From assembly GCA_041656215.1 (NCBI GenBank), contig JBBADY010000002.1, positions 1 through 53,366 of the forward strand: 53,366 nucleotides of DNA. The letters run 5' to 3'. The stretch's first letter is position 1. The number at the start of each line of letters is the position of its first letter. Position numbers and translations under genes: made by a program. Positions 1 through 32,605 of this stretch are shown in pieces. Under the pieces are notes generated by a model, which was given only the letters and a program-made list of their open reading frames with translations, was not told the DNA's origin and did no database searches. The stretch comes from Candidatus Dojkabacteria bacterium. Its GTDB lineage: Bacteria; Patescibacteriota; Dojkabacteria; SC72.

Positions 1-269
1 ATATGCTTACAACTTTGCTTAAGTCTAACTGATTAGGTTCGGTTAGTATCTGATATTTCTTATCCCTAGTTAGGGGTTTCAGATAGTCATTACTAGGGTA
101 TATCTACTATCTCTTGTCGGTAGGGGGTATTAGTTGAATATAATTACTGAGCAAATAGAACTTTTTGTTAGATTTTTTAGTTTTGTTTGACTATATAAAT
201 CTAAATAGATTTGTAAATGACGCAGTTCTTAACTTTTGGACGTGGGTTCAACTCCCACCGTCTCCACCA
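1..269 (+). ncRNA. ssrA: tmRNA (ssrA), 5'-truncated by window edge
   Basis: 238-269 ggacgtgggttcaactcccaccgtctccacca matches the canonical tmRNA T-arm, acceptor and encoded CCA. A short tag frame, gct tac aac ttt gct taa (5-22), ends ...AYNFA-stop. Confidence 0.8.
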
Positions 270-3321: not shown

Positions 3322-4191
3322 ATGTACTTAGGAGCACATGTATCCTCCAGTGGAGGTATTGAAAATGCAATAAAAGAGGGGGATAAGTATAAGATAAACA
3401 GTATACAGATGATGCCTACTGCCCCTATGAGATGGGCTACCAAAAAGATCCCTGATGAGAGTATAGAGGCTTTTGTAGAGGCCCTTAAGGGTAGTGTTGT
3501 GAAGAAGATTTTAATACACGGTATATATCTAACCAATTTAGCTAGGAAGGACAAACAACTCTTCCATATGGGTAAGATGGGGTTAGCCGTATATTTAGAT
3601 TTTGCAAATAGAGTAGGTGAGTTAATTAAAAAGAATGACTTAGATGTTGAGATATTGGGTGTATGTTTTCATCCGGGATCTCAAAAAGAGCTTAACTATG
3701 AAGACAGTTTAGAGAGAATATCGTACGGTATAGATTGGGTATTAAATGAGGTAGGAGGAGATCAGTGGTTACTAATAGAGTCTACAGCGGGTACAGGCTC
3801 TAACATGGGTAGAAGTTTTACAGAGCTAAAGGGTATGAGAGATGGTAGTAAGGGAAAGGATAGGGTTGGGTATGTTCTAGATACTCAGCATACATACGCT
3901 GCTGGATATGATTGGGTTAGTGATATAGATAGTGTGGTAGAGGAGATTGGAGAGACATTAGGGTTTGATAGGGTTAAGGCTATTCATCTAAACGATTCTC
4001 TCATGGCTTTAGGTTCTAACAAGGATAGGCATGCTAATCTTGGAGAGGGTAAATTGGGTAAAGATACTGTACACGACATATTGCACAGGAAAGAGTTTAA
4101 AGATATTCCTTTCATATTAGAAACTCCAGCATTAAAGAGTTCTACTACAATGGGTGAGGAGATAGAAAAGTTAAAAGAGTTGTCTAAGTAA
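3322..4191 (+). CDS. nfo: endonuclease IV (AP endonuclease family 2)
   Basis: N-terminus MYLGAHVSSSGG. Length of 289 aa and TIM-barrel xylose-isomerase-like motifs (HPGS, LETP) are typical of Nfo. Confidence 0.88.
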   Translation: MYLGAHVSSSGGIENAIKEGDKYKINSIQMMPTAPMRWATKKIPDESIEAFVEALKGSVVKKILIHGIYLTNLARKDKQLFHMGKMGLAVYLDFANRVGELIKKNDLDVEILGVCFHPGSQKELNYEDSLERISYGIDWVLNEVGGDQWLLIESTAGTGSNMGRSFTELKGMRDGSKGKDRVGYVLDTQHTYAAGYDWVSDIDSVVEEIGETLGFDRVKAIHLNDSLMALGSNKDRHANLGEGKLGKDTVHDILHRKEFKDIPFILETPALKSSTTMGEEIEKLKELSK

Positions 4192-7100: not shown

Positions 7101-7286
7101 TATGTATTTGTTGAACATGGTAGTGAGATTGAGGTAGATATCTCGCAGAAGAGAAAAGATCAGGCATTGGAGAATATAGATACTGTTATTGCAGGTATTA
7201 AAAGCCAAGAGTTTGGTGCTACTCCTGATATGTTTAAGTGTAAATATTGTGATTACAGGAACATATGTGAGGATGCTATTTTATAA
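4191..7286 (+). CDS. UvrD/PcrA-type superfamily-1 helicase fused to a C-terminal PD-(D/E)XK (RecB/Cas4-like) nuclease with a Cys cluster
   Basis: Helicase motifs: Walker A AGAGTGKT, DEFQDTN, VGDDDQAIYKFRGA, VHSSKGLEF. Nuclease motifs: IDRMD...EIIDYKTGK. Cysteines: C in QECPKKYEY plus CKYCDYRNIC. The start overlaps the nfo stop (TAATG). Confidence 0.88.
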   Translation: MNVNLNEKQKLAVQHKKGALLIIAGAGTGKTAVITQRILHIINSKWAKPSEILALTFTDKAAQEMLARVDENLPLSYGDIWISTFHSFCDRILRQEGQYIGLDTNYSMMSSAESYIFFRKNLFNFSLKKFRPYGNPTKFIDDILKHFSRLQDEDVSPDDYIAFAKKLPKRTKEQKEEYEDTLELATVYEQYTELKIENSKIDFGDLIILTIKLFREKPNVLKRYKERFKYVLVDEFQDTNHTQNVLVNILCGFDPKYDIEKVGKINPNLTVVGDDDQAIYKFRGAAISNILQFKQYYPKAKEVVLVENYRSRQEILDSAYALISHNNPYRLEITEKIEKRLISRVPFEKDDDIVNLVVAQDEDSEAEWISKEILELTGYGENIEGERAQRFDQEGQSRFVELVPDREYKFNDIAILVRANAHADVIIKNLRYLGIPYKIGGSRGLYFRDEIKFLISFLKVLVDYKDGISTYKVLTLPQWNLSAREFIEINRLARENKLSILEELEGLLQIKLGEEKIETFDLSTSNVLDKILSDDAKEGLGMFLKIVNESILKIKDGKSTGEILYDFVQDSGYLDSLVKKGDSQAHFEISNISKFFHLMQEYEKNNVDTNIYEYVDYLDYSIEVGDSPLVDLMDMAEYDAVNILTVHSSKGLEFPIVFLANLVSDRFPSQNRKDTIPIPEGLIKEQLSGLEEKEEHLQEERRLFYVGTTRAKEKLYLTAANYYGGAKRKKKGSIFLHELLDRDITEEFDKPKVLKKEKITDMYIHEEKENILPKDLKMNLGKRVSYSQINIYQECPKKYEYAYVLQLPSRPNAAFSFGTTVHNALKDFYTIVRMSKEGLGLTEGPSKEDLVSLFKKNWISIGYESKKHEMERKKNGERMMKEYYEKVFNEKQTPYRLEESFTVHLKDSTFVGKIDRMDLVEMKDGVAHVEIIDYKTGKEKSKSDIKKDLQLPLYSIFAERSLGVKVKAAKYVFVEHGSEIEVDISQKRKDQALENIDTVIAGIKSQEFGATPDMFKCKYCDYRNICEDAIL

Positions 7287-7314
7287 TTGGGTTTAATATA
7301 TTACTTATTTCTAG

Positions 7315-7320
7315 TATAAT
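7315..7320 (+). promoter_or_regulatory. -10 element TATAAT, 5 nt upstream of the pilin-1 ATG
   Basis: tagTATAAT-tgcgc-ATG(7326). Confidence 0.5.
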
Positions 7321-7325
7321 TGCGC

Positions 7326-7643
7326 ATGTTTAGAACAAATATATATGCAAATTCACTAAGTGATGCTCTTAAGGGAGTAAATGATCTTTCAGAAGCTTCT
7401 GATGTTGGTAGCTTTATGGACTCTATTATCTCTCTAGCTATACCATTAGCAGTATTCTCTGTCTTCGTACTCTTAGTCTTTGCTGCATATCAACTTATGA
7501 CAAGTAAAGGGGACCCAGATAAGCTTAAGCAGGGTAAAGAGGTTATAACGAACGCCATTATTGGTTTCCTCTTTATACTAATGTCTGTTGCTATACTTCT
7601 TTTAATAAGTAATTTGTTTGGAATAAATATTAGTGGAAGTTAA
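7326..7643 (+). CDS. VirB2/TrbC-like (T4SS-type) pilin paralogue 1
   Basis: Two TM helices flank the loop motif TSKGDPDKLKQGK. The ATG at 7326 is preferred over the TTG at 7320. Confidence 0.7.
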   Translation: MFRTNIYANSLSDALKGVNDLSEASDVGSFMDSIISLAIPLAVFSVFVLLVFAAYQLMTSKGDPDKLKQGKEVITNAIIGFLFILMSVAILLLISNLFGINISGS

Positions 7644-7959
7644 GAATAAAAATATAATACCTTTAGGTGTAACAATAGGGGGATACTCATTTGAAGCACC
7701 TGCATTGAAAGAGGGTTTTACTACAGTAGAGGGAGTTATGGATATTGTTGTATTTGGATTAAATACTCTTGTAGGTTTAGCAGCTCTTGTTGCAGTAGCT
7801 ATGATTATATATTCTGGTTTTACATTTATCACAGCAGCTGGGGATCCAGAGAAAGTTCAGAAAGGTAGTGGTGCATTAACTGCTTCTATTATTGGATTAA
7901 TCATAGTATTTATAGCTAGAATAGTTGTAGTCTTCCTATTAGAAAATATATTGGTCTAA
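7633..7959 (+). CDS. VirB2/TrbC-like pilin paralogue 2
   Basis: GTG start overlaps the end of paralogue 1 by 11 nt. Sequence reads AALVAVAMIIYSGFTFITAAGDPEKVQKG followed by a second TM. Confidence 0.7.
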   Translation: MEVKNKNIIPLGVTIGGYSFEAPALKEGFTTVEGVMDIVVFGLNTLVGLAALVAVAMIIYSGFTFITAAGDPEKVQKGSGALTASIIGLIIVFIARIVVVFLLENILV

Positions 7960-8025
7960 GGTGTTGCATTAGCCTTAGTACTATCATATAATCAAATGCT
8001 AAATATAAAATATTATATATACAAA

Positions 8026-8385
8026 ATGAAGAATCCTTTAGCAAAAATATCAGGTGGAGCACTTGCTCTTTATGTAGGTTTTACAGGACTAGTAGGTCAA
8101 GCTTTTGCACAAAAGAAAGCAAGCGAATGGATCGGTGGTATTGAAGGCGTAGATTCAAGCTTAGACTCTTGGGTAGTAGTAATGCTTAACTGGGCTATTG
8201 GATTAGCAGCTTTAGCTGCAGTAGCAATGTTAGTAGCAGCAGGTTTTATGTTTATTACTGCTAATGGTGATGAGGGTAAGGTAGAGAAGGCAACAAAGAC
8301 ATTAACATTTGCAATCATTGGACTTGTTGTATGTTTCATTGCTGTAATGCTTGTAAGATTTGTATTAACAAGTTTCTTACAGTAA
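8026..8385 (+). CDS. VirB2/TrbC-like pilin paralogue 3, with Sec-type signal peptide
   Basis: MKNPLAKISGGALALYVGFTGLVGQAFA/QKK, then AALAAVAMLVAAGFMFITANGDEGKVEKATK and a second TM. An alternative in-frame ATG lies at 7996. Confidence 0.7.
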   Translation: MKNPLAKISGGALALYVGFTGLVGQAFAQKKASEWIGGIEGVDSSLDSWVVVMLNWAIGLAALAAVAMLVAAGFMFITANGDEGKVEKATKTLTFAIIGLVVCFIAVMLVRFVLTSFLQ

Positions 8386-8402
8386 TTTTTTGAATTTAAA
8401 CT

Positions 8403-8427
8403 AGGGCCCGCTTGGGCCCTTTTTTTT
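8403..8427 (+). terminator. Rho-independent terminator inside the pilin array
   Basis: Stem AGGGCCC-gctt-GGGCCCT followed by T8. Confidence 0.8.
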
Positions 8428-8433
8428 ACTATT

Positions 8434-8706
8434 ATGAACATAGATTTAAACAACATAACTACGGTAAGTCATGTAGATTTTGCAGGCTTTATTATAGAGA
8501 TCCTTAATTGGGCTATTAATTTATCAGCTATTTTAGCTGTAATCATGATTGTAGCTGCAGGGTTTCAATATATCATCTCTATGGGAGATGAAAAGAAGAT
8601 AGCTGCTGCTAACAAGTCATTGATATTTTCCTTAGTTGGAATGATACTGGTATTTCTAGCACCTTCTGTTATACAATTCATCATAGATAACTTTTTGGGA
8701 ATGTAA
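8434..8706 (+). CDS. VirB2/TrbC-like pilin paralogue 4
   Basis: AILAVIMIVAAGFQYIISMGDEKKIAAANK followed by a second TM. Confidence 0.65.
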   Translation: MNIDLNNITTVSHVDFAGFIIEILNWAINLSAILAVIMIVAAGFQYIISMGDEKKIAAANKSLIFSLVGMILVFLAPSVIQFIIDNFLGM

Positions 8707-8708
8707 CT

Positions 8709-9026
8709 GTGATAGAAAAGATAGTACTAAATATTAGTAAACTGTTTGCATCTCCTATATTTGCTCAAAACGATGATGCTCCTCCACCTAAGATAGAGCT
8801 TATCTTTGGTCCAATAGAGAATATCTTTGATATGTTTCTTCCAATTGGGGCATTAATAGCAGTAGCTATGATTATCTATGGTGGTTATCTATACATCATC
8901 TCTGGAGGAGATCCTGCTAGAAAACAGTTAGCACAGGGTACACTTACTTGGTCAGTAATAGGTTTAATATTTCTCTTTCTAATTAAGGGTATATTAACAC
9001 TTATAGTAGACTTCATAGGTGCATAG
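8709..9026 (+). CDS. VirB2/TrbC-like pilin paralogue 5
   Basis: GTG start 2 nt after the stop of paralogue 4. ALIAVAMIIYGGYLYIISGGDPARKQLAQG followed by a second TM. Confidence 0.65.
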   Translation: MIEKIVLNISKLFASPIFAQNDDAPPPKIELIFGPIENIFDMFLPIGALIAVAMIIYGGYLYIISGGDPARKQLAQGTLTWSVIGLIFLFLIKGILTLIVDFIGA

Positions 9027-9046
9027 CTTGGTCTTTTTCTTACACA

Positions 9047-9055
9047 TGCTATAAT
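9047..9055 (+). promoter_or_regulatory. extended -10 TGcTATAAT, 7 nt upstream of ATG 9063
   Basis: catGCTATAAT-ttgttta-ATG. Confidence 0.5.
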
Positions 9056-9062
9056 TTGTTTA

Positions 9063-10886
9063 ATGTCTAAGTACAAAACTGTCCAACAATTTGTAATGTT
9101 TTTACTGTTTTTCTCATTTCTCCTTTTTTTTGTTTCTAACCTTTCTTCTTCTGTATATTCAGGACCTGCAGAGGATCTAGAAGCAGAGATTAATAGAAAG
9201 ACAGAGGAGTTAAACAAAAACAAGAGTACTCTCTCCGCTATTGAAAAAAGAATTGCAGAGATTAGCGGTAGTAATTACTCATTAACAGAGAAGGTTAATC
9301 TTTTAAATGCAGAGATTACAAAATTACAAGAACAGATAGATGTTAAAGCGACTGAGATAGATGAAAAGTTAAAACTTATCGCAGAGAAAGAGGAGTTACT
9401 TAATCTTAAGAAAGAGCTTTCTGATATGGTTTCTTCCGAACTATATATGCAATCAAGGCATGGTGGTAGTCAATTACTTCTTTCTTTTACTAACTTAGAG
9501 AATCTTTTACAGAATCTCTTTATTAAAAAGACAGCTATTTCAATACTTAGAAGTGATATAGAGAAGATAAGTGGGGAGTTTTCATCATTAAGTGATATGA
9601 AAGAGGGTTTAGAGAATGAGAAATTAGATTTAGATACACAGAAGAAAGATTTAGATGATTCATATGCTTTAGTATTAGCAGAGAAAGAGAAGATACAGAA
9701 GGAGTTAAATGCACATTTAGCTACTAAAAAGAATGTAGTTAAATCTATTAATGGTCTTTCTGCAGAGCTATCAGATTTACAGTATCAGTTAATAATTGCA
9801 AGACAGGGAGGTACTTATGTAAATATAGATTCTGTACCTGTTAGTGGAGATTATAACTCTACATTGGCAGGTTTTAATGCGAATGCACCTGCAGGCTCGT
9901 TCGGAGTATTTTCAATAGGGGCATATACACACAGAAATGGTATGAGTCAGTGGGGGGCAAGAGCTAGAGCTAATGCAGGGCAGAGCTATCAACAGATACT
10001 TAATGCCTACTATCCTGGTAGAGCATTTAGAACAGACACTGTTGTAATCTCTGGAGTAAGTGAGAATATAATGAGCAGTATACCGACTACTACATACGGG
10101 ACTTTGAATTTTGAGGATGATTATCTATTAAGGCTTAATGAGGTCCCTGAATCATGGCCTATGGAGGTATTAAAAGCTCAAGCTATTGCTGCAAGAACAT
10201 ATGCAATTAACTATACCCAAAATGGTAGGAAAGCTATTTGCACAAGTGAAAGCTGTCAGGTAGTTGGTGCTGGTCAAAAAACTGGTGCTTGGAAAACTGC
10301 AGTTCAAGCAACTAGGGGAGTAATACTTACTGATGGAAATGGTTCTGCATTCTCTGCTCAGTATGCAGCTGTACATGGAGGTTGGGGTAATCAGATTGGC
10401 TGGGATACTACGGATGGCTCTGGTAGTGGGGATTGGATGGGTAGAGCATGGGATAGGCTATCCAATGTCTCATGGTTTTATAAAGTATGGTATAGGCAAA
10501 CATACAGTGAATCTAGCTCTACATGCGGAAGAAGTCCATGGCTATCTCAATCAGAGATGGCAGATCTTGTTAATATATATCAAATATGGAAAGCAAGTGG
10601 TGGAAATGATTCAAGAGTATATCCTGTAATAGATGGATGTCATGTTAACAAAGGGCAGTATACTCATGCAGATGCAAGATCTCTTGCTGCAAAGCCTGTA
10701 ACTTCTATTTCCTCTGTTATTGTGACTAGTAGTAATGGTTCTACTGGTACTGTAATTTTTGGAACAAATGCAGGTACAATCAGTATGACTGGTAATGAGT
10801 TTAAAACAATATATAACTTACGAGCTCCAGGGCATTTAAGAATACCTCAAAGTAGCTTTGTACATATAAATATACATAAGAAGTAA
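9063..10886 (+). CDS. secreted or membrane-anchored coiled-coil protein with a SpoIID/LytB peptidoglycan-hydrolase domain
   Basis: N-terminal hydrophobic segment, then about 200 aa of heptad-rich E/K/L sequence. SpoIID signature: VPESWPMEVLKAQAIAARTYAINY...CQVV...TRGVILT...YAAVHGG. Confidence 0.82.
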   Translation: MSKYKTVQQFVMFLLFFSFLLFFVSNLSSSVYSGPAEDLEAEINRKTEELNKNKSTLSAIEKRIAEISGSNYSLTEKVNLLNAEITKLQEQIDVKATEIDEKLKLIAEKEELLNLKKELSDMVSSELYMQSRHGGSQLLLSFTNLENLLQNLFIKKTAISILRSDIEKISGEFSSLSDMKEGLENEKLDLDTQKKDLDDSYALVLAEKEKIQKELNAHLATKKNVVKSINGLSAELSDLQYQLIIARQGGTYVNIDSVPVSGDYNSTLAGFNANAPAGSFGVFSIGAYTHRNGMSQWGARARANAGQSYQQILNAYYPGRAFRTDTVVISGVSENIMSSIPTTTYGTLNFEDDYLLRLNEVPESWPMEVLKAQAIAARTYAINYTQNGRKAICTSESCQVVGAGQKTGAWKTAVQATRGVILTDGNGSAFSAQYAAVHGGWGNQIGWDTTDGSGSGDWMGRAWDRLSNVSWFYKVWYRQTYSESSSTCGRSPWLSQSEMADLVNIYQIWKASGGNDSRVYPVIDGCHVNKGQYTHADARSLAAKPVTSISSVIVTSSNGSTGTVIFGTNAGTISMTGNEFKTIYNLRAPGHLRIPQSSFVHINIHKK

Positions 10887-10934
10887 AGATTAAATGTATT
10901 GTTAAATAGGGGATTTCTATGATATCCTAATTAT

Positions 10935-11567
10935 ATGGATAAACCTAAGAGAAATATTCCTAAGAAATTTCAGAAATCTAAGAAATCATTTGTAGATAGG
11001 GTATATCTTGAATCGCAGAAGAGTAGTTTTAATAATGTATCTGCATTCCCTAAAGGTATTAGCTTCTATGGTAAGGATAGTGATGAGGATATTGTATTGG
11101 TTGTTAGAGCCCATTGGATAGCATATTTACCAGATCTCTTTGTAATACTCTTAGTTCTTCTCTTACCAGTACTACTACTTTTTCTCTCTGGATTTTATCC
11201 ATTAATAGGGACTCAAGTACTATATATTGGAATGATTATTCTCTCCATTGGTGTTGCATTCACACTACTGCTATCTACACTACTTAAGTGGTATTACACA
11301 GTTAACATTATTACAGATCAAAGAATTGTAGTAATTAAAATGAATAACGCATTCCATCATTCATACGCAGAGACACAGTTAGAGAAGATAGAGGATATGA
11401 CACATCACCATTTAGGCTTTCTTGGAACTTTCTTTGATGTAGGAGATGTAGAAATAGATACTGCAGGCCATGGAGTAGACTTTGTACTAAGGATGTTACC
11501 AAGACCAAGAGAGATGCAAGATATTTTAAATGATCTGCTTGAGATGAAGCAGAAAGGAGATATATAG
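10935..11567 (+). CDS. membrane protein with a bacterial PH (bPH_2/YdbT-like) domain
   Basis: Two TM helices followed by YYTVNIITDQRIVVIK...FLGTFFDVGDVEIDTAG. Confidence 0.55.
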   Translation: MDKPKRNIPKKFQKSKKSFVDRVYLESQKSSFNNVSAFPKGISFYGKDSDEDIVLVVRAHWIAYLPDLFVILLVLLLPVLLLFLSGFYPLIGTQVLYIGMIILSIGVAFTLLLSTLLKWYYTVNIITDQRIVVIKMNNAFHHSYAETQLEKIEDMTHHHLGFLGTFFDVGDVEIDTAGHGVDFVLRMLPRPREMQDILNDLLEMKQKGDI

Positions 11568-11568
11568 T

Positions 11569-11826
11569 ATGGAGAGTATATATGAACAGCTTTTTACAAA
11601 CAGTTTAACCCTTTCTCTTAATTTAGGAGATATACTGAAAATTCCTCTTGTAGTTATCTTACTAGCTAATATCTTCTACTCCTTTATGTTAGTGCTTAAG
11701 ATTAAAGTATTAATAGATACGATAGGGACACGCAGTAGTGGTAAGATAAAGAAAATAGGGTATTTAAATCTAGGTATATCAATAGTAATAGGGATATTAG
11801 CAACCTTTATAATTCTATTAGGATAA
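11569..11826 (+). CDS. small 2-TM membrane protein, hypothetical
   Basis: 85-aa ORF whose ATG lies 2 nt after the preceding stop. Two hydrophobic helices. Confidence 0.45.
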   Translation: MESIYEQLFTNSLTLSLNLGDILKIPLVVILLANIFYSFMLVLKIKVLIDTIGTRSSGKIKKIGYLNLGISIVIGILATFIILLG

Positions 11827-11831
11827 TATAA

Positions 11832-14093
11832 ATGAGTGTAGCTGCCTCTCAATATTTAAACAATTCAAATACAGGTAAATCTTTTACAGGAGTATTCCAC
11901 TATACAACACCTGTTAGAGGTAAGCATGATTCAGCTGTAGAGATATACGGCTTACTCTCTGTTAAGAGTGAAGTAGAGATCCCTGGTGCTAATATTGCTA
12001 AATTCGCATGGAGTGGTATTGTAGATGGGTTTGAATATTCAAAGACAGACTCTATAAATGAGGCTCTTAAGGTTGCACTTACAGAGTCAACTAGAAGAAT
12101 TAAACAGTTAATTGCAAATGATAAAAATATTTCTTCTCACGGTGTAAATATTAACTTCTCTGTTTTTGTATCTTGTTCAAAAGGATTGTATGTTGGCTCT
12201 CTTGGTGATTGTGATATATATATCTATAAAAAAGATAGGCTTGTAGATATACATGAGATGTTAAGTAAAAAGAGTGCAAAGACTGCTGGGTTGATAATAG
12301 AGGAAGAGGATATACTTTTTTCCTCAACTAAGGGTTTTCTTAAAAGAAATATTGAGAAATTAACAGGGCTATCAAATAAAAAGGATTTGTTAGAAGCATT
12401 AGATAGTATTGCTCATAAACTAGAAGATGATGAGGGACTTCTCATACTAACAGAAGATGAGGAGAAACCTAAAGAGGAGGAAGTAGTTCTTGAGGAGAAG
12501 ATAGTAGAGAATGAATTAGACTCCGACTATATTCCTACTCAAAAAGAGAGTGTAGTAAAGAAGGATATAAAAGAGAGAGATTTGAAAAGTTTGTTAATTG
12601 CCTTTAAGAGTAAGAGTATACTCTTTCTTAAACCTCTATTTCTTAAATTAAAATCAGCATTACTTTCTCTAAAAGATTCTCTTAAGAGAGTTAAAATAAA
12701 GAATCCTTTCTCTAAGAGTATTCTAAAGATAAAGGATAGCTTAAAGAATAAAAGATGGTTTAAGAGAATATCTGCAAAAGTTTCTCAATCAGATCTTAAT
12801 AGTAGTAAAAAGGCTCAGTTTAAGGGTTTTAAAGTAGATGGGTATATGATAAAGAATAAGAAGATAGAGAGATTTAAGATTCTCTTCTTTATCATTCTGG
12901 CAATAGTTGTAATTGTTGGTGGAGTTAAATTTACTATTGATCAGAAAGAGGCTAGAAGGATTAGTAATGAGGCAAATGCGGTATTTACTACTGTAGAGGG
13001 TCTTGTTAAAGATGCAGAGGAGAAAGCTCCTACTGATAGGGCTACTTCTGAGACTCTCATATTTAGAGCAGCAGATGAATTAAAGAAAGTGCCTGAGAAT
13101 TTAAGAGAGAAAGATACTATTAAGTTTGAAGACCTTAAGAGTAGGGTACTTGCTTTGCAAGATGTGCTGTATAAGAGAGTAGGACTAGTTGATTCAGATG
13201 GCTCTATAGAGACATATATAGAAACAAGGCTGGCATTTGGAGAGGGTTCCAAGCCAAGTGATATTGCTATGTATTCTGATAGTAAAGGTAATGAGTATCT
13301 TCTTGTTACAGATCCTTCTTTGAAGGGTGTCTTCGCTATCTCTTTGTATGATAAGGAGGTTAAACGTCTCTCAGATAGCAATTCAGTACTTCAGGAACCT
13401 GCAATGCTGTATATAGGTAAGAGTGGACTCTTTGTGCTAGATACTCGTGTTGGTGTCGTAAAAGCGGAGTTTGATGATAATGGATGGTTTAAGCCTTTCG
13501 TTAAACTTACAGGTTTAGGTATAGAGAATATTGGAGCTAAGGATATAGCTGAGTTTGCGGTTTTAACAGACATAGATAATGTATATATTTTAGATAGAGG
13601 GGAGAAAGCATTACTTAAATCTTCAAACTTTGGATCTGGGTATGGTCTCTCTTTTGCATATATAAAGGATGATTCATTTGCACAGGCAAATGATATATTG
13701 GCTGACTTGAGTGTATACATATTAACATCAGGTTCTACTGGGTTGCATAGGTATATATATAGCTATTTTGAGAGTAAAATGATACCTTCACCTTTAGAGA
13801 TATTAGGTCTAGATGGAGAGATTAAGAATCTAACCTATGGCTATACAAGAGGAGAGCTTAGTTTCGATTTATATCTTTTTGATAAAGAGGATAGAAGAGT
13901 TATGAGATTTGAGAAACCAATAGAGGGTGGGGGAGAAGTTAGACATCCGAATCAAGCTTTACTAAAGAATCAGTATATCTATAGAGGTAGTAGAGAGAAT
14001 GTATGGTCTGAAGTGAATGATTTGGTTGTTACAAAGGATCAGAAGACACTGTATATATTAGATTCTTCAATTATATGGAAAGTTAGGTTATAG
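11832..14093 (+). CDS. large bitopic hypothetical protein: N-terminal PP2C/SpoIIE-like region, K-rich linker, one TM, about 370-aa C-terminal repeat or beta-rich domain
   Basis: 753-aa ORF. GLYVGSLGDCDIYIYKKDRLVDI resembles the PP2C GDSR segment. The TM is FKILFFIILAIVVIVGGVKF. Confidence 0.55.
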   Translation: MSVAASQYLNNSNTGKSFTGVFHYTTPVRGKHDSAVEIYGLLSVKSEVEIPGANIAKFAWSGIVDGFEYSKTDSINEALKVALTESTRRIKQLIANDKNISSHGVNINFSVFVSCSKGLYVGSLGDCDIYIYKKDRLVDIHEMLSKKSAKTAGLIIEEEDILFSSTKGFLKRNIEKLTGLSNKKDLLEALDSIAHKLEDDEGLLILTEDEEKPKEEEVVLEEKIVENELDSDYIPTQKESVVKKDIKERDLKSLLIAFKSKSILFLKPLFLKLKSALLSLKDSLKRVKIKNPFSKSILKIKDSLKNKRWFKRISAKVSQSDLNSSKKAQFKGFKVDGYMIKNKKIERFKILFFIILAIVVIVGGVKFTIDQKEARRISNEANAVFTTVEGLVKDAEEKAPTDRATSETLIFRAADELKKVPENLREKDTIKFEDLKSRVLALQDVLYKRVGLVDSDGSIETYIETRLAFGEGSKPSDIAMYSDSKGNEYLLVTDPSLKGVFAISLYDKEVKRLSDSNSVLQEPAMLYIGKSGLFVLDTRVGVVKAEFDDNGWFKPFVKLTGLGIENIGAKDIAEFAVLTDIDNVYILDRGEKALLKSSNFGSGYGLSFAYIKDDSFAQANDILADLSVYILTSGSTGLHRYIYSYFESKMIPSPLEILGLDGEIKNLTYGYTRGELSFDLYLFDKEDRRVMRFEKPIEGGGEVRHPNQALLKNQYIYRGSRENVWSEVNDLVVTKDQKTLYILDSSIIWKVRL

Positions 14094-14104
14094 CCTTTTA
14101 ATGG

Positions 14105-14113
14105 TGATATAAT
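14105..14113 (+). promoter_or_regulatory. extended -10 TGaTATAAT, 5 nt upstream of the smpB ATG
   Basis: ggTGATATAAT-cgctt-ATG(14119). Confidence 0.55.
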
Positions 14114-14118
14114 CGCTT

Positions 14119-14562
14119 ATGAGAATTATTAATAAAAAAGCGTTATACAATTATGAAATCTTAGAGAGATTTGAAGCAGGTATTGTATTAACTGGCTCTG
14201 AGGTAAAAGCAATAAGGGATAGTAGGTGTAATTTAGGGGATGCTTTTGTTAAGATAATCTCTGATGAGCTGTGGGTCGTTAATATGGATATACCTAAGTA
14301 TAAATATGATGGTTCTTCTGATTATGATTCTGCAAGATCAAGGAAATTGCTTGTTAAAAAGAAAGAATTAACGTATTTTGAGAGTAAGATGAAGCAAGGA
14401 AATCTTACCCTTATTCCTCTTAGTGTGTACAGTAAGGGAAGAAATATTAAGGTAGAAGTAGGCTTAGCTAGAGGTAAGAAAAGGTATGAGAAAAAGCTGA
14501 AAGAGAAGGAGAGAGATTTAGATAGAGAGCTACTATTGGAAAAAAGAAAATATATGATATAA
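14119..14562 (+). CDS. smpB: SsrA-binding protein SmpB
   Basis: INKKALYNYEILERFEAGIVLTGSEVKAIR plus a basic C-terminal tail. Typical length of 147 aa. Confidence 0.93.
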   Translation: MRIINKKALYNYEILERFEAGIVLTGSEVKAIRDSRCNLGDAFVKIISDELWVVNMDIPKYKYDGSSDYDSARSRKLLVKKKELTYFESKMKQGNLTLIPLSVYSKGRNIKVEVGLARGKKRYEKKLKEKERDLDRELLLEKRKYMI

Positions 14563-14574
14563 TTATTATAGGTT

Positions 14575-14880
14575 ATGGCAGAGATAAAAGAATTACAACC
14601 AAAGAACAGCTTTTCAGTAGAGGGACCACACTCTTCAGAAGGTCCATCTTTTGAAGTTGGAACTGAAGCAAGAGCTGTTACTCCTACACAAGAAATCAAA
14701 CCTACTGTGCAGGCAGAGAGAGCTGATGTAAAAGAAATAGATTCTCAAGTACAGGAATCTTCAATTAGAGTAAATACTTCCAAGGTAAAGACTTTTGATA
14801 TTAATGCTCCGATTAAAGATGGTAGTACATGGTTAGATATATTAGAAGCAAAAAGGGTAGGAGAAGAACTTCCTCAATAA
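14575..14880 (+). CDS. acidic, probably disordered hypothetical protein
   Basis: 101-aa ORF with no recognisable domain. Confidence 0.4.
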   Translation: MAEIKELQPKNSFSVEGPHSSEGPSFEVGTEARAVTPTQEIKPTVQAERADVKEIDSQVQESSIRVNTSKVKTFDINAPIKDGSTWLDILEAKRVGEELPQ

Positions 14881-14947
14881 CCTCTCGATTACACTTTCTA
14901 AGTATGATATCCTTTCTATAGAGATTGTTTAAGCTGTCCATTCTTTT

Positions 14948-17470
14948 ATGAAACCATATATTTTTGCTCAAATAGGTCCAATGCCAAATAATTCTCAGCA
15001 AGAGATTATCATTGCTGACCCAAGAGAGTATCCAAAAGATTCATATGATGAGTTTAATAACTCTGGTATTACCATTCCATGGGGATGGATTTTCTTCTTT
15101 CTCTTCTTTATTGGTCTTGTAGCATTAGCTTTCTTCAAAGTAAGAAGTAAGTTACTTAAAAAAGATAGGGATGATAAAGCGAAGGAGTGGGTACTTTACG
15201 AGGTAAGAGTCCCAAGAGGGAACGAGACAGAGATAGGGGTTGCAGAGAAGATGTTTGCTAATCTTGTAGGTATTGGTGGTAAGGGTAAGGGTGTAGCAGA
15301 GAGGTTTACTGTAAATAACAGTATTAGTTTTGAAATAATGGCTGTACCTGGAGAGATAAAGTTCTTTGTATATACTCCTCTTAATTTAGCAGATCTAGTT
15401 GAAAAGCAGATATTAGGTTCATACCAAGATGCTGAAGTTAAGAAGGTTGATGATTATAATATTTTTAATAAAGATTCTAAGGTAGCATTTACACGCTTAG
15501 AGCTTGATGATGAGACATACTGCCCTATAAAGGTATTTGATGATTTTACAGGAGATCCTCTTGCGAATGTATTAAGTACACTCAGTAAAATGTCTGATAA
15601 TGAGGGAGCTATGGTACAGATAGTGATCTCCCCAAGTGATAGTAAATGGCAGAAGAATGGTTCTAGTTTTGTAAAGAAGGTTGAGAATAATAATCAGGAT
15701 CCCGAAAAGAAGAAGATTAATGTAAGTCAGGAGAAGTTACAGGGTATTAGTAAGAAGGTTTCTAAGAATGGGTTTAAAGTAGATATTAGAATTGTTACAA
15801 ATGCTCCAGATGAATCATTAGCTAAGATGCATTTAGATAATATCATTGGTGCTTTCGATCAGTTTAGTAACCCTGGTATAAATAGATTTAAGAAAGTAGC
15901 AGTTAAAGGTAAGGAGAAGGAGAGGGAGTTTATGTTAGATGTGATATATAGAAGAACATCTTTAGAGAGTGGTAGTATTTTAAATGTAGAGGAGTTAGCA
16001 ACCCTTTATCATTTTCCTAACAAAGAGATTACAACACCTAATATTAATTGGTTACTTGCAAGGGAGATACCTGCGGATAATACAATTAGTTCTAATATTA
16101 AATCTAAAGATACAATATGGGTGGGTAATAATGTGTTTAGAGATAAGACAAAGGCTATATGTTTTCAAAGAGAGGATAGAAGAAGACACTCCTATATACT
16201 TGGTCAAACAGGTTCAGGTAAGTCTTGGCTTATGACAAGAATGATCGTTCAGGATATATATAATGGAGATGGTGTCTGCTTTATAGATCCTCATGGTCAA
16301 ACAGCTGAGATGATTTTAGAACGTATTCCACCAGAGAGAGTGGAGGATGTAATCTACTTTAATGCTGCGGACTTTGAAAGACCTTTTGGTCTTAACATTA
16401 TGGAGTATTACAATGAGCAGCATATGCATCAGATTGTTAATAGTTTCATTGCTCTCTTAATCCGTCTATTCGATCCACATAATCAGGGATATGTAGGGCC
16501 AATGATGCAACAGGCCGTTAGAAACTCTATGCTAACTGCTATGAGTGAGAAGGGTTCTACATTAATAGAAGTTGTTAGAATACTGCAAGATGAGAAATGG
16601 GTACAGGAGAAATGGTTACCTTTAGTTAAAGATGAATTAGTTAGAAGATATTGGATAGATCAGGTTGCTAAGACAGATCAGAAGACTAAATCAGAGAGTC
16701 TTGGTTACTTTATTTCTAAGTTTGATAAATTTACAACAAACTTAGCTATTAGAAATGTAATAGGGCAGTCTGAATCATCGTTTGATTTTAGAGAGGTTAT
16801 GGATAATGGGAAGATATTAATTGTGAATCTTGGAAAAGGTTTACTAGGGGAGGAGAATATGTCATTCCTTGGCTTACTGTTAGTTCAAAAGATGTTAGCT
16901 GCTGCTCTAAGTAGAGAGAATGTGGCTGAGGATAAAAGAAGAGACTTCTTCTTCTATGCTGATGAGTTCCAAAATTTTGCAACCGATGAATTTACCTCAA
17001 TCCTTTCTGAAGCAAGGAAGTATAAATTGAATCTTACTCTTGCACATCAATATATTGGTCAGCTTCCAGAGAATATTAAGGGTGCTGTATTTGGTAATGT
17101 AGGCTCTCTATTTGTTGGAAGATGTGGGTCAGAGGATGCTAACTTCTTAGAACCACAGTTTGAATCATATGTTAAAGCTACAGATTTGATAAATCAGGGT
17201 ACTGCACATTACTATGTAAAGATGCTAAATGAAGGTTCATATCCAGGGCCTTTCTCTCTTGATGCTAGATATGGTCCTAAATTCCCAGAGAGTGGTTTTG
17301 ATATGAAAGCTAATCCAGAGGTTGCAAGAATTATTAAAGAGATGTCTAGACTAAAGTATGGTAGAGATGTGAATATCGTAAATATGGATATTAACAGAAG
17401 ATCTGACTTAGAAAGAGTGGAGGAAAAGGAGCCTCAATCTCCTACAGGTTTCCCTCCTATCAATTTTTAG
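14948..17470 (+). CDS. T4SS coupling-protein-like ATPase (VirD4/TrwB/TraD family) with an N-terminal TM and a lineage-specific domain
   Basis: Walker A is ILGQTGSGKSW, followed by CFIDPHG. Walker B is FFFYADEFQNF. The TraG/TraD C-terminal-like segment is EARKYKLNLTLAHQYIGQL. Confidence 0.78.
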   Translation: MKPYIFAQIGPMPNNSQQEIIIADPREYPKDSYDEFNNSGITIPWGWIFFFLFFIGLVALAFFKVRSKLLKKDRDDKAKEWVLYEVRVPRGNETEIGVAEKMFANLVGIGGKGKGVAERFTVNNSISFEIMAVPGEIKFFVYTPLNLADLVEKQILGSYQDAEVKKVDDYNIFNKDSKVAFTRLELDDETYCPIKVFDDFTGDPLANVLSTLSKMSDNEGAMVQIVISPSDSKWQKNGSSFVKKVENNNQDPEKKKINVSQEKLQGISKKVSKNGFKVDIRIVTNAPDESLAKMHLDNIIGAFDQFSNPGINRFKKVAVKGKEKEREFMLDVIYRRTSLESGSILNVEELATLYHFPNKEITTPNINWLLAREIPADNTISSNIKSKDTIWVGNNVFRDKTKAICFQREDRRRHSYILGQTGSGKSWLMTRMIVQDIYNGDGVCFIDPHGQTAEMILERIPPERVEDVIYFNAADFERPFGLNIMEYYNEQHMHQIVNSFIALLIRLFDPHNQGYVGPMMQQAVRNSMLTAMSEKGSTLIEVVRILQDEKWVQEKWLPLVKDELVRRYWIDQVAKTDQKTKSESLGYFISKFDKFTTNLAIRNVIGQSESSFDFREVMDNGKILIVNLGKGLLGEENMSFLGLLLVQKMLAAALSRENVAEDKRRDFFFYADEFQNFATDEFTSILSEARKYKLNLTLAHQYIGQLPENIKGAVFGNVGSLFVGRCGSEDANFLEPQFESYVKATDLINQGTAHYYVKMLNEGSYPGPFSLDARYGPKFPESGFDMKANPEVARIIKEMSRLKYGRDVNIVNMDINRRSDLERVEEKEPQSPTGFPPINF

Positions 17471-17522
17471 TAAGGTACTGCACAAATCCTCAAGTTTCTG
17501 GTAAAATCGCATGTACTCGTAT

Positions 17523-17596
17523 GGGAGTATAGCTCAGGTGGTTAGAGCACGGTTCTTATAAAGCCGAGGTCGATGGTTCAAACCCATCTACTCCCA
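17523..17596 (+). tRNA. tRNA-Ile (anticodon TAT)
   Basis: Cloverleaf GGGAGTA..TACTCCC-A. Anticodon stem CGGTT/AGCCG, loop CTTATAA. No encoded CCA. Confidence 0.88.
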
Positions 17597-17676
17597 TTTA
17601 AAGCCAGGCTTGGCAAACCTATAAGGTTGGGAATATCAGTTATATCCTTTAGATAGTGAAAAAGAGGTGTTTAGGC

Positions 17677-29701: not shown

Positions 29702-29747
<46 letters not shown>

Positions 29748-31990: not shown

Positions 31991-32122
31991 AACGGTCCTA
32001 AGGTAGCGTAATACCTTGTCACTTAATTAGTGACTTGCATGAAAGGTGTAACGACTCCTCCACTGTCTCGACAACGCGCTCGGTGAAATTGAAATGGCTG
32101 TGAAGATGCGGCCTACCCATAC

Positions 32123-32153
<31 letters not shown>

Positions 32154-32562: not shown

Positions 32563-32605
<43 letters not shown>

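What the first reader, a model, noticed from the sequence alone, without database searches (positions are those of the whole stretch)
7326..17470. Pared-down T4SS-like pilus locus: five VirB2-type pilins, a SpoIID hydrolase, orphan membrane proteins and a VirD4/TrwB-type ATPase
Five small two-TM proteins with a VirB2/TrbC-like layout are seen in the sequence. They are followed on the same strand by a peptidoglycan hydrolase (which could play a VirB1-like role), a bPH-domain membrane protein, an 85-aa 2-TM protein, a 753-aa bitopic protein, a 101-aa acidic protein and an 840-aa ATPase with TrwB/TraD-like motifs (GQTGSGKSW, YADEFQNF, AHQYIGQL). I could not recognise VirB3, B4, B6, B8-B11 or a relaxase anywhere in the window. 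smpB sits in the middle of the cluster. By inference, this may be a minimal, lineage-specific filament or DNA-translocation apparatus of the type proposed to mediate host contact or DNA uptake in episymbiotic CPR bacteria. The uncharacterised 753-aa, 210-aa and 85-aa proteins would then be its novel structural parts. The helicase-nuclease directly upstream (4191-7286) might supply DNA processing, but that is speculative.
Basis: partly seen in the sequence, partly recalled or inferred. Interest (0 to 1): 0.75.

Follow-up and report, generated by a model that had tools for sequence, protein, structure and literature searches.

The report
Pilin array and coupling ATPase, Dojkabacteria
This stretch of a tiny candidate-phyla-radiation (CPR, Dojkabacteria) genome carries five specialised pilus-subunit genes and a coupling-type ATPase of the type IV secretion system already described for these bacteria; it is one part of a scattered system, not a new minimal machine.

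Summary
Five tandem genes (7326-9026) all pass Pfam's threshold for T4SS_pilin (PF18895). They are followed on the same strand by a SpoIID-type hydrolase, a bPH membrane protein, a DUF5657 protein, a 753-aa bitopic protein, smpB, a 101-aa acidic protein and an 840-aa ATPase with the quoted motifs.

The ATPase is a coupling-protein (T4CP) homologue with a DUF8128 N-domain. It aligns over nearly its full length with the protein in the T4CP position of Bacillus and haloarchaeal plasmid conjugation clusters, and it is not VirB4.

The "pared-down, self-sufficient apparatus" reading is not supported. The window is chromosomal Dojkabacteria (WS6). Published surveys list VirB4 in Dojkabacteria genomes, so the core is probably encoded elsewhere. 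It is absent from the window and from about 19 kb to its left.

In Paceibacteria-type genomes the ATPase orthologue lies after secY-adk-map, with no pilins nearby. Synteny within Dojkabacteria also covers housekeeping genes such as smpB, xerC and ftsH.

The 753-aa protein models as a PP2C-fold domain, a TM helix and an NHL beta-propeller. That is a receptor-like layout, not a known T4SS part.

New details: the five pilins are positional orthologues across the class, and a small ORF always precedes the ATPase.

Verdict: a new member of the known Patescibacteria T4SS pilin-array kind.

The parts
7293..7320 (+). Promoter-like site (TTAATA, 16-nt spacer, TATAAT) directly upstream of pilin 1
   Evidence: Consensus scan, 10 of 12 matches. 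This is a pattern match only; the region has fewer such sites than its shuffles do.
7326..7643 (+). Pilin paralogue 1 (105 aa from the ATG at 7326; 107 aa from the TTG at 7320)
   Evidence: PF18895 at 29.3 bits against 26.6. Two hydrophobic helices. Positional orthologue in 34 of 34 five-gene arrays. Called from 7326 by an independent gene caller.
7633..7959 (+). Pilin paralogue 2 (108 aa)
   Evidence: PF18895 at 39.3 bits. Positional orthologue in 29 of 34 arrays.
7996..8385 (+). Pilin paralogue 3 (129 aa, or 119 aa from 8026). It has an N-terminal signal-peptide-like leader ending AFA-Q, is the only basic pilin (pI 9.1), and is a candidate major pilin.
   Evidence: PF18895 at 41.4 bits. Highest score against the class-wide pilin HMM, and the type that is duplicated in 6-8-gene arrays. 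Positional orthologue in 34 of 34 arrays. The 'major pilin' role is inference.
8403..8430 (+). Intrinsic-terminator-like hairpin (AGGGCCC GCTT GGGCCCT followed by T7) between pilins 3 and 4
   Evidence: A hairpin with a different stem sequence sits at the same place in the closest relatives L002, L005 and L007, but was not detected in more distant ones (3 of 43 loci, strict criteria).
8434..8706 (+). Pilin paralogue 4 (90 aa, no leader)
   Evidence: PF18895 at 39.7 bits. Positional orthologue in 34 of 34 arrays.
8709..9026 (+). Pilin paralogue 5 (105 aa, leader ending IFA-Q)
   Evidence: PF18895 at 52.4 bits; TrbC/VirB2 PF04956 at 24 bits, below its cut-off. Positional orthologue in 34 of 34 arrays.
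9063..10886 (+). SpoIID/LytB-type peptidoglycan hydrolase with an N-terminal membrane anchor or signal and a roughly 200-aa coiled coil. It could open the wall for the pilus or be a general wall-remodelling enzyme.
   Evidence: SpoIID at 55 bits; TIGR02669 at 94 bits against 83.3; weak coiled-coil hits to SMC, PcsB and RipC. TM-like segment at 10-28. Adjacent to the pilins in core Dojkabacteria, but separated from them by sbcCD in L085.
10935..11567 (+). Two-TM membrane protein with a C-terminal bacterial PH domain
   Evidence: bPH_2 at 22.7 bits against 22. TM-like segments at 68-86 and 99-117. Stop-to-start gap of 1 nt to the next gene.
11569..11826 (+). DUF5657 small membrane protein
   Evidence: PF18901 at 42.1 bits. 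Kept next to the 753-aa gene in L086 and L091.
11832..14093 (+). Bitopic receptor-like protein. Residues 1-208 form a cytoplasmic PP2C-fold domain with non-canonical metal-site motifs. A disordered linker, a TM helix near 345-368 and a helical stalk follow. Residues 449-753 form an extracytoplasmic NHL-type beta-propeller.
   Evidence: AF2 model, pLDDT 80.6. Foldseek matches the PknD sensor (1rwl), Pizza and Drp35 for the propeller, and MspP, tPphA, PstP and SpoIIE for the N-domain. No Pfam hit. All 69 word-based homologues are Dojkabacteria/WS6.
14119..14562 (+). smpB (tmRNA-binding housekeeping gene). It lies inside the block but is not part of any secretion function.
   Evidence: Reading of the sequence. 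Called as PF01668 SmpB in relatives. Always sits between the 753-aa gene and the ATPase pair.
14575..14880 (+). Small acidic protein (101 aa), fast-evolving, with a conserved C-terminal motif (...W..IL..K..GEE(L/I)P). Candidate partner or adaptor of the ATPase.
   Evidence: An ORF of 88-133 aa lies between smpB and the ATPase in nearly all of 70 loci, and shares the C-terminal motif. The adaptor role is inference.
14948..17470 (+). T4CP-family ATPase. One N-terminal TM helix (47-65), a DUF8128 domain (about 80-355), then a VirD4/TrwB-like P-loop domain with a helical insert (about 385-820).
   Evidence: DUF87 and TrwB_AAD_bind above cut-off. PF26449, PF02534 and PF10412 on homologues. Profile against PDB: DotL 9e-6, TrwB 2e-4. 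Foldseek: TrwB TM-score (target-normalised) 0.57-0.67, and TrwK/VirB4 best over the full length. 25% identity over residues 126-807 to the T4CP-position protein of a B. subtilis plasmid. Split homologues on the haloarchaeal plasmid pHTS138.

Best explanation
The region is an origin-proximal chromosomal neighbourhood of a Dojkabacteria (WS6) genome. It holds two genuine pieces of the Patescibacteria-type type IV secretion system (T4SS), which is derived from the conjugation machinery of monoderm (single-membrane) bacteria and archaea.

Piece 1 is an array of five anciently diverged, individually conserved VirB2-like pilins. Piece 2 is a membrane-anchored coupling-protein (T4CP) ATPase with a DUF8128 N-domain, always preceded by a small acidic ORF.

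The assembly core (VirB4, VirB3/PrgI, TrsD, VirB6) is not here and is most likely encoded elsewhere in the genome. The system is dispersed rather than pared down.

Proposed mechanism (inferred):
1. The pilins are inserted into the membrane as hairpins. Pilins 3 and 5 have cleavable leaders.
2. The distant VirB4 machine extracts and polymerises them into a tube or stalk built from specialised subunits. Pilin 3 is the likely major subunit, because it is the duplicated type and is followed by a terminator-like hairpin.
3. The T4CP hexamer feeds or receives a macromolecular substrate without a relaxase.
4. The genes in between (SpoIID hydrolase, bPH protein, DUF5657 and the PP2C-fold/NHL-propeller receptor) form an envelope or signalling module. 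Their link to the pilus is possible, through wall opening or contact sensing, but not shown.
5. smpB is an unrelated housekeeping gene.
For: - Pilin identity: all five pass the PF18895 cut-off.
- Five-fold positional orthology: 165 of 170 assignments match across 34 five-gene arrays. Expansions involve the pilin-3 type.
- ATPase in the T4CP class: Pfam and NCBIfam hits to TraD and VirD4-like families; PDB profile hits only to DotL and TrwB; TrwB/Cagbeta fold for the C-domain.
- Near-full-length homology (E 5e-39) to the protein next to the relaxase-like gene in a B. subtilis Tcp-type cluster. That cluster has its own TcpF/VirB4, which is unrelated to the window ATPase beyond the P-loop.
- The same pilin family and DUF8128+T4CP occur together with a VirB6-like gene and a 1099-aa 'conjugal transfer protein' on Haloterrigena pHTS138.
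- Published surveys describe chromosomal arrays of 2-11 VirB2-like pilins, T4CPs mostly far from virB4, absence of relaxases, origin-proximal location, and VirB4 recorded as present in Dojkabacteria genomes (PMC12102498). The pilin array is essential in Southlakia epibionticum (PMC10633639; PMC12857230).
- dnaA lies about 6.4 kb left of the window, so the array is about 14 kb from dnaA.
Against: - VirB4 was not located in this genome. It is absent from the window and from about 19 kb to the left. Its presence elsewhere rests on a published table for two other Dojkabacteria genomes.
- No sequence similarity to any solved pilin, and no pilin structure was predicted.
- The block from the 753-aa gene through smpB and the small ORF to the ATPase persists in all Dojkabacteria-lineage loci examined, including deep ones. 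This could mean a tighter functional unit than I assume.
- The ATPase's best full-length structural matches are VirB4, so a VirB4-like role for it is not strictly excluded.
Confidence: 0.6

Rival explanations
1. The adjacency is only inherited gene order. Under this view the pilin array belongs to the T4SS. SpoIID, bPH, DUF5657 and the 753-aa protein form a cell-wall, division or signalling module. smpB is translational quality control. The DUF8128 T4CP-like ATPase is a CPR-wide core gene exapted to a job unrelated to pili, for example nucleic-acid handling at the membrane. It sits next to xerC and divIC here.
For: - Synteny extends equally to smpB, xerC, divIC, efp, ftsH and polA.
- The ATPase orthologue sits after secY-adk-map with no pilins in five Paceibacteria-type loci.
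- sbcCD separates the pilins from SpoIID in L085, and sbcC precedes SpoIID in L091.
- The published survey notes that T4CPs are rarely near virB4, that the t4cp was not essential in S. epibionticum, and that exaptation is possible.
- The 753-aa protein looks like a PstP/PknD-style receptor.
Against: - PF18895 pilins and DUF8128+T4CP are parts of one cluster type on haloarchaeal plasmids.
- All genes from 7326 to 17470 are co-directional, with gaps of 67 nt or less.
- The block survives changes of the upstream flank, which is ClpB, nfo or the helicase-nuclease in different genomes.
Confidence: 0.25
2. The locus is a self-sufficient minimal filament or DNA-translocation machine. The T4CP-like ATPase takes over the VirB4 role, helped by its VirB4-like two-domain shape, and the 753-, 210- and 85-aa proteins are its novel structural parts.
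For: - No VirB4 or VirB6 in 53 kb plus about 19 kb of flank.
- The full-length AF2 model matches TrwK/VirB4 best (E 1e-16).
- The block is conserved throughout the Dojkabacteria lineage.
Against: - VirB4 is reported present in Dojkabacteria genomes.
- The ATPase is sequence-homologous to T4CP-position proteins that coexist with a separate VirB4.
- Its orthologue is unlinked from pilins in Paceibacteria-type genomes.
- The 753-aa protein is a receptor-like PP2C/NHL protein.
- No polytopic VirB6-like channel protein lies in the block.
Confidence: 0.08
3. The five pilins are interchangeable variant cassettes for antigenic or host-range variation, not distinct subunits.
For: Low identity between paralogues (19-22%). 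This idea is raised for Patescibacteria arrays in PMC12102498.
Against: Each paralogue keeps its position, size class and best-match identity across 34 genomes (165 of 170). That is the pattern of fixed, specialised subunits rather than fast-turnover cassettes. No repeats or recombination signals were looked for.
Confidence: 0.05

Closest known systems
Patescibacteria T4SS with VirB2-like pilin arrays (Southlakia epibionticum SEML1_0006-0019, Wang et al. 2023; survey by Quinonero-Coronel et al. 2025)
   Same: Chromosomal, origin-proximal location. Tandem array of sequence-divergent PF18895/VirB2-like pilins (2-11 in the survey, 6 in S. epibionticum, 5 here). No relaxase. T4CP homologues present in the genomes.
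   Different: Here the array is not next to VirB4, VirB3 or VirB6. It lies about 6 kb upstream of the T4CP and is flanked by SpoIID, bPH, DUF5657 and a PP2C/NHL receptor-like protein. The five paralogues are fixed positional orthologues across the class.
Haloarchaeal plasmid T4SS cluster (Haloterrigena salifodinae pHTS138, NZ_CP069189.1)
   Same: A PF18895 pilin (37.5 bits) and a DUF8128-like protein plus T4CP. The T4CP is 31% identical to window residues 413-807, and the DUF8128 ORF matches residues 127-378 at E 8e-18.
   Different: It has a single pilin. A TrbL_3/VirB6-like gene and a 1099-aa 'conjugal transfer protein' lie between the pilin and the T4CP. DUF8128 is a separate ORF. The cluster is plasmid-borne.
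T4CP-position protein of Bacillus subtilis Tcp-type plasmid clusters (NZ_OX419568.1, 913-aa 'DUF87 domain-containing protein')
   Same: 25% identity over window residues 126-807, covering both the DUF8128-like N-domain and the ATPase (E 5e-39).
   Different: It sits next to a replication-relaxation family gene and upstream of TcpE, TcpF/VirB4 and a CD3337/EF1877 membrane protein. The class pilin HMM finds no PF18895-type pilin in that stretch.
TrwB (R388) / VirD4 / Cagbeta / DotL coupling proteins
   Same: Fold of the C-terminal ATPase domain with its helical insert (Foldseek target-normalised TM-score 0.57-0.67, E about 1e-11). Walker A and B motifs. Membrane anchoring. PDB profile hits are limited to these proteins.
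   Different: One N-terminal TM helix instead of two, and an extra DUF8128 domain of about 280 aa. No relaxase or VirB4 neighbour. Sequence scores are far below the NCBIfam equivalog cut-offs.
Archaeal Ced/Ted DNA-import systems (from general knowledge of Beltran et al. 2023, not read here; the NCBIfam CedD hit is a tool result)
   Same: Conjugation-derived machinery with VirB2-like pilins and no relaxase, used for import rather than export. There is a weak hit of the window ATPase to CedD (22.5 bits).
   Different: No CedA- or CedB-type proteins were identified here. The CedD score is far below its cut-off of 600.
PstP (membrane PP2C phosphatase) and PknD (NHL-propeller sensor kinase) of Mycobacterium tuberculosis, as comparators for the 753-aa protein
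   Same: A cytoplasmic PP2C fold, a single TM helix and an extracytoplasmic domain, as in PstP. The outer domain is a six-bladed NHL propeller like the PknD sensor (1rwl, E 1e-7).
   Different: No Pfam PP2C hit. The positions expected for the DGxGG and SDG metal ligands read 'LLSVKS' and 'SST.G' in the family consensus (my reading), so catalysis is doubtful.

Membership tests
T4SS_pilin (PF18895) / VirB2-TrbC-like pilins | Profile score at or above the curated cut-off | tested here: met
   All five score 29.3-52.4 bits against 26.6. TrbC PF04956 scores only 24 bits against 27.9, for pilin 5.
T4SS_pilin (PF18895) / VirB2-TrbC-like pilins | Small protein with two hydrophobic helices joined by a short polar loop | tested here: met
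   Hydropathy and alignment showing the conserved GD(P/E)xK loop.
T4SS_pilin (PF18895) / VirB2-TrbC-like pilins | Cleavable N-terminal leader | tested here: inconclusive
   Signal-peptide-like leaders ending AFA-Q (pilin 3) and IFA-Q (pilin 5) by reading. None is obvious in pilins 1, 2 and 4. No predictor was run.
T4SS_pilin (PF18895) / VirB2-TrbC-like pilins | Polymerises into an extracellular pilus or stalk | not testable with these tools
   No similarity to solved pilins by sequence.
Type IV coupling protein (VirD4/TrwB/TraD/TcpA class) | P-loop ATPase with Walker A and B motifs and the T4CP-specific profile | tested here: met
   TrwB_AAD_bind at 24.2 bits against 20.5, covering residues 404-708. 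G419-K425, D672, E673 and H700-Q701 are invariant in 45 homologues. PDB profile hits are only DotL and TrwB.
Type IV coupling protein (VirD4/TrwB/TraD/TcpA class) | TrwB-like fold with a helical (all-alpha) insert, and an N-terminal membrane anchor | tested here: met
   Foldseek to TrwB, target-normalised TM-score 0.57-0.67. Helices at 490-619 lie between core strands. One TM helix at 47-65, where TrwB has two.
Type IV coupling protein (VirD4/TrwB/TraD/TcpA class) | Orthology with proteins in the T4CP position of conjugative clusters | tested here: met
   E 5e-39 to the B. subtilis plasmid protein beside the relaxase-like gene. E 2e-38 to the pHTS138 T4CP.
Type IV coupling protein (VirD4/TrwB/TraD/TcpA class) | Works with a relaxase and a VirB4 channel encoded nearby | tested here: not met
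   No relaxase or VirB4 in the window or about 19 kb to the left. The same is usual for Patescibacteria T4CPs.
VirB4 (T4SS signature ATPase) | Sequence homology to VirB4/TcpF/TraC profiles beyond the P-loop | tested here: not met
   NCBIfam VirB4-type hits cover only residues 383-454 at about 20-22 bits. BLASTP against a TcpF-type VirB4 gives E 0.21.
VirB4 (T4SS signature ATPase) | Two-domain architecture (N-domain plus C-terminal ATPase) resembling VirB4 structures | tested here: inconclusive
   The best full-length Foldseek hits are TrwK/VirB4 (E 1e-16) but with TM-scores of 0.31-0.33 and rmsd of about 17 A. The N-domain could not be searched alone.
Complete T4SS (mating-pair-formation module) | VirB4 plus VirB3, VirB6 and VirB8-type membrane parts in the locus | tested here: not met
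   None in the window or the left flank. No polytopic membrane protein in the block. VirB4 is reported elsewhere in Dojkabacteria genomes.
SpoIID/LytB peptidoglycan hydrolases | Profile score above the curated cut-off | tested here: met
   PF08486 at 55.1 bits against 23. TIGR02669 at 94 bits against 83.3. Catalytic residues were not checked.
PP2C/PPM phosphatases (753-aa protein, N-domain) | PP2C fold | tested here: met
   Foldseek to MspP, tPphA, STP, PstP and SpoIIE, E about 2e-7, target-normalised TM-score 0.5-0.59.
PP2C/PPM phosphatases (753-aa protein, N-domain) | Conserved metal-binding aspartates (DGxGG, SDG and DN motifs) | tested here: inconclusive
   No Pfam PP2C hit. Only a weak partial Stp1 hit at 17.7 bits. 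My reading of the consensus finds the motif skeleton but not the canonical ligands. No structural superposition was possible.

The most novel reading that the evidence does not exclude
In the Dojkabacteria lineage, the block from bPH and DUF5657 through the PP2C/NHL receptor, smpB and the small acidic ORF to the DUF8128-T4CP, together with the five-pilin array, could form a host-contact-controlled, relaxase-independent conduit for nucleic acid or protein. The outward NHL propeller would sense the host surface. The degenerate PP2C domain and the acidic adaptor would gate the T4CP. The five specialised pilins would build the tube. This would give a concrete gene set for the tubular structures and host-RNA uptake recently reported for a cultivated patescibacterium (bioRxiv 10.64898/2026.06.21.733656).
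Probability: 0.12. Interest if true: 0.75.

Novelty: new member of a known kind. Interest (0 to 1): 0.35.

Why it matters
The T4SS of Patescibacteria is essential in the one species tested, yet its function is unknown. Tubular structures that may be T4SS pili have been seen at the parasite-host interface.

This locus adds three points that can be used.
- The pilins of a whole class are five fixed, specialised subunits rather than variable copies. That argues for a heteromeric filament and names a candidate major subunit.
- The CPR 'T4CP' is a fused DUF8128-T4CP. Its relatives on Bacillus and haloarchaeal plasmids sit in real conjugation clusters, while in CPR it is a vertically kept core gene with a constant small partner ORF.
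- A receptor-like PP2C/NHL protein is always nearby in this lineage.

None of this changes the picture of what the system is. It refines which genes to test.

Tried and rejected
- Exact-product look-ups for the window's edge genes failed three times, so the right flank beyond 53,366 was not examined.
I got round this by obtaining a protein id through the cluster table.
- Literature searches for DUF8128, PF26449, DUF5657 and PF18901 found nothing.
- A sequence search of the 753-aa protein against PDB found nothing. A pilin profile against PDB gave only chance hits.
- The supplement of PMC12102498 is truncated. Its per-genome component list does not reach the Dojkabacteria genomes, and its list of families near virB4 was not stored.
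- The small proteins next to the Paceibacteria ATPase orthologues are soluble acidic helical proteins without TM segments, so I rejected them as VirB3 candidates.
- I considered an FtsK-like role for the ATPase because of the adjacent xerC and divIC. I kept it only as part of a rival explanation, because xerC is convergent and the adjacency is absent in Paceibacteria-type genomes.
- The terminator after pilin 3 is conserved only in the closest relatives, so I give it little weight.
- The metagenome scan was not used. Any query would have returned mostly more Dojkabacteria loci.

Full report
WHAT IS THERE. Five small proteins are encoded at 7326-9026. Each passes the Pfam gathering threshold for PF18895 T4SS_pilin (29-52 bits against 26.6). 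Each has two strongly hydrophobic segments around a conserved GD(P/E)xK loop. They share only 19-22% identity with pilin 1.

NCBIfam places them nearest the Mbov_0395 pilin-like conjugal transfer family of mycoplasma ICEs, below its cut-off. The pilins are followed by:
- a SpoIID/LytB hydrolase with an N-terminal anchor and a long coiled coil;
- a two-TM bPH protein;
- a DUF5657 protein;
- a 753-aa single-TM protein;
- smpB;
- a 101-aa acidic protein;
- an 840-aa ATPase containing the quoted motifs.

The rest of the window is housekeeping. It includes an rRNA operon, polA, ftsH, an ATP-dependent ligase, a ClpB/C-type AAA+ ATPase, radA, rho, leuS and tRNAs. No VirB4, VirB6 or relaxase is present.

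WHOSE GENOME. The ATPase has 77 close relatives (66-97% identity) in species-representative genomes. Those with an informative name are labelled Dojkabacteria or WS6; many records carry only a generic name such as 'uncultured Candidatus Saccharibacteria bacterium'. An identical stretch lies on contig CAZUCS010000001.1 of GCA_964619595.1. On that contig the genes to the left of the window are tmRNA, SpoU, MASE3, a response regulator, dnaN, dnaA, rpmH, rnpA, yidD, yidC, jag, Wzy_C, UDG, a 611-aa protein, a PilM/FtsA-like protein and RNase J. dnaA therefore lies about 6.4 kb left of window position 1, and the pilin array is about 14 kb from it. No VirB-type gene occurs in those 19 kb.

THE ATPase IS A COUPLING PROTEIN, NOT VirB4.
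- Homologues carry PF26449 (DUF8128) plus DUF87, TrwB_AAD_bind, T4SS-DNA_transf and TraG-D_C. NCBI names them 'type IV secretory system conjugative DNA transfer family protein' or 'TraM recognition domain-containing protein'.
- A 45-sequence profile hits only DotL and TrwB in PDB.
- The AF2 model (pLDDT 76.5) matches TrwB, Cagbeta and DotL over the C-domain (target-normalised TM-score 0.54-0.67).
- Over its full length the model matches TrwK/VirB4 best (E 1e-16), but with low TM-scores. The two-domain shape is therefore VirB4-like, and that point stays open.
- A tblastn search of plasmids was decisive. The protein aligns over residues 126-807 with a 913-aa protein of B. subtilis plasmids (E 5e-39). 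That protein lies beside a replication-relaxation family gene and upstream of TcpE, a TcpF-type VirB4 and a CD3337/EF1877 membrane protein. The TcpF-type VirB4 shows no similarity to the window ATPase beyond the P-loop.
- On Haloterrigena plasmid pHTS138 the two halves are separate genes, a 399-aa DUF8128-like ORF and a 1034-aa T4CP. They follow a PF18895 pilin, a TrbL_3/VirB6-like protein and a 1099-aa 'conjugal transfer protein'.

The pilin family and the DUF8128-T4CP are thus parts of one type of T4SS.

WHY IT IS NOT A SELF-CONTAINED MINIMAL MACHINE.
1. The kind is published. Patescibacteria carry a T4SS related to the conjugation machinery of monoderm bacteria and archaea (the MPF-FATA class). 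They have chromosomal arrays of 2-11 divergent VirB2-like pilins, about two T4CP homologues per genome that are mostly far from virB4, almost no relaxases, and frequent placement near dnaA (PMC12102498). The pilin array and the T4SS are essential in Southlakia epibionticum. The two Dojkabacteria rows retrieved from that paper's genome table are marked 'VirB4: Yes', and the preprint lists Dojkabacteria among the T4SS-bearing groups.
2. In five Paceibacteria-type loci the ATPase orthologue (35-37% identity) lies directly after the secY-adk-map end of the ribosomal-protein operon (four loci) or among other housekeeping genes (L078), and is followed in the three loci translated (L080-L082) by a soluble acidic ORF of about 95 aa. 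No pilin, SpoIID, bPH or DUF5657 gene lies within 10 kb.
3. Within Dojkabacteria the order helicase-nuclease, five pilins, SpoIID, bPH, DUF5657, 753-aa gene, smpB, small ORF, ATPase, xerC, divIC, efp, ftsH, polA is conserved almost everywhere. It therefore does not separate functional linkage from plain collinearity.
4. Four deeper relatives are more informative. The core from the 753-aa gene through smpB and the small ORF to the ATPase is always kept. bPH-DUF5657 is kept in L086 and L091; a 206-aa ORF fills the bPH slot in L087, and both are missing in L085. The upstream flank changes to ClpB in L086 and L087. sbcCD lies between the pilin genes and SpoIID in L085. In L091 sbcC precedes SpoIID and no pilin is seen in the 10 kb shown. 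The pilin array is thus separable from the rest.

THE MIDDLE GENES. The 753-aa protein has 69 word-based homologues, all Dojkabacteria/WS6 and none with a Pfam domain. An exhaustive profile search finds 898 cluster representatives. One near the bottom of the top 150 (P0438, E 4e-27) is still labelled Dojkabacteria; most others checked carry no name.

Its AF2 model (pLDDT 80.6) has these parts:
- an N-terminal alpha/beta domain (residues 1-208);
- a disordered linker;
- a TM helix (about 345-368) and a helical stalk;
- a C-terminal beta-propeller (residues 449-753).

Foldseek matches the propeller to the PknD extracellular NHL sensor, Pizza and Drp35. It matches the N-domain to PP2C phosphatases (MspP, tPphA, PstP, SpoIIE). 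Pfam PP2C models do not hit. By my reading of the family consensus, the canonical DGxGG and SDG metal ligands are replaced, so it may be a pseudophosphatase. This is inference.

The architecture is that of a transmembrane sensor, not a known secretion-channel part. The published survey notes that non-VirB1 glycosidases may do this in Patescibacteria. It could equally be a general wall-remodelling enzyme. Nothing here decides between the two.

NEW DETAILS.
(a) A class-wide pilin HMM finds exactly five pilin genes in 34 complete arrays of relatives. In these, 165 of 170 genes match the window paralogue of the same ordinal position. Arrays of 6-8 genes carry extra copies of the pilin-3 type. Deep relatives have pilin domains fused to longer N-terminal regions. 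This is the pattern of fixed, specialised subunits, not of variable cassettes. Pilin 3 has a clear leader, is the only basic pilin, is the duplicated type, and is followed by a strong terminator-like hairpin that is kept in the closest relatives. It is my candidate major subunit (inference).
(b) An ORF of 88-133 aa lies between smpB and the ATPase in nearly all of 70 loci. It evolves fast but keeps a C-terminal motif. It is a plausible T4CP partner (inference).

MECHANISM, WITH STATUS. Shown by sequence or model:
- the family assignments of the pilins, the T4CP and SpoIID;
- the topology of the membrane proteins;
- intact ATPase motifs;
- the origin-proximal location.

Inferred from established knowledge of VirB2, VirB4 and T4CP function:
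- membrane insertion of the pilins;
- extraction and polymerisation of the pilins by a VirB4 encoded elsewhere;
- relaxase-independent substrate handling by the T4CP hexamer.

Speculative:
- wall opening by SpoIID;
- contact sensing by the NHL/PP2C protein;
- an adaptor role for the 101-aa protein.

VERDICT. The locus is a new member of the known Patescibacteria T4SS pilin-array kind, in a split arrangement. It is of moderate interest for its refinements rather than for a new principle.

Noticed in passing
window 29105-32977 (23S rRNA), ORF at 31378-31896: The 23S rRNA match spans 3873 nt against a 2925-nt model. It contains an ORF with a LAGLIDADG_1 homing-endonuclease domain (76.5 bits). This is an rRNA intron or insertion of the kind known from CPR bacteria.
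   Followed up: partly
window 17522-17597: tRNA-Ile with anticodon TAT (UAU) lies directly after the ATPase gene. This is an uncommon way for bacteria to read AUA.
   Followed up: no
window 1-269 and 14119-14562: A 5'-truncated tmRNA gene sits at the window start, and its partner smpB is embedded in the pilin-ATPase block 14 kb away. smpB keeps this position, between the 753-aa gene and the ATPase pair, in every Dojkabacteria-lineage locus seen.
   Followed up: partly
window 46643-51730: A 1695-aa protein with a signal-like N-terminus and a Peptidase_S74 (endosialidase chaperone) domain at residues 1214-1265. It looks like a self-cleaving surface fibre or adhesin.
   Followed up: no
window 25023-26858: A three-domain ATP-dependent DNA ligase (archaeal/eukaryotic type) lies next to polA.
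   Followed up: no
window 42264-43634: A LysM + Peptidase_M23 protein. The published survey notes such domains in some Patescibacteria VirB1-like proteins, but here it is 25 kb from the ATPase.
   Followed up: no
L080 10001-14532, L081 10001-14435, L082 10001-13155: In Paceibacteria-type genomes the DUF8128-T4CP orthologue sits immediately after secY-adk-map. It is followed by a soluble acidic ORF of about 95 aa, and in two cases by a 424-468-aa helical protein. This is a housekeeping-like, conserved context for a 'conjugation' ATPase.
   Followed up: partly
L090 7758-12051: On haloarchaeal plasmid pHTS138 the DUF8128 region is a separate 399-aa ORF that overlaps the start of the T4CP gene. 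It is fused to the T4CP in CPR and in Bacillus plasmids.
   Followed up: partly
L089 15193-18288: About 15 kb left of the window, a PilM_2/FtsA-like gene sits next to a 611-aa protein with no domain hit. These may be type IV pilus (not T4SS) assembly genes.
   Followed up: no
L003 1974-3032, L005 1995-3054: Some close relatives have about 1 kb between pilins 2 and 3 that contains no pilin-HMM hit. It is an insertion of unknown content within the array.
   Followed up: no
L091 3844-9063: In one deep relative a 1739-aa DUF7402 protein is inserted between SpoIID and the bPH-DUF5657-753-aa genes.
   Followed up: no
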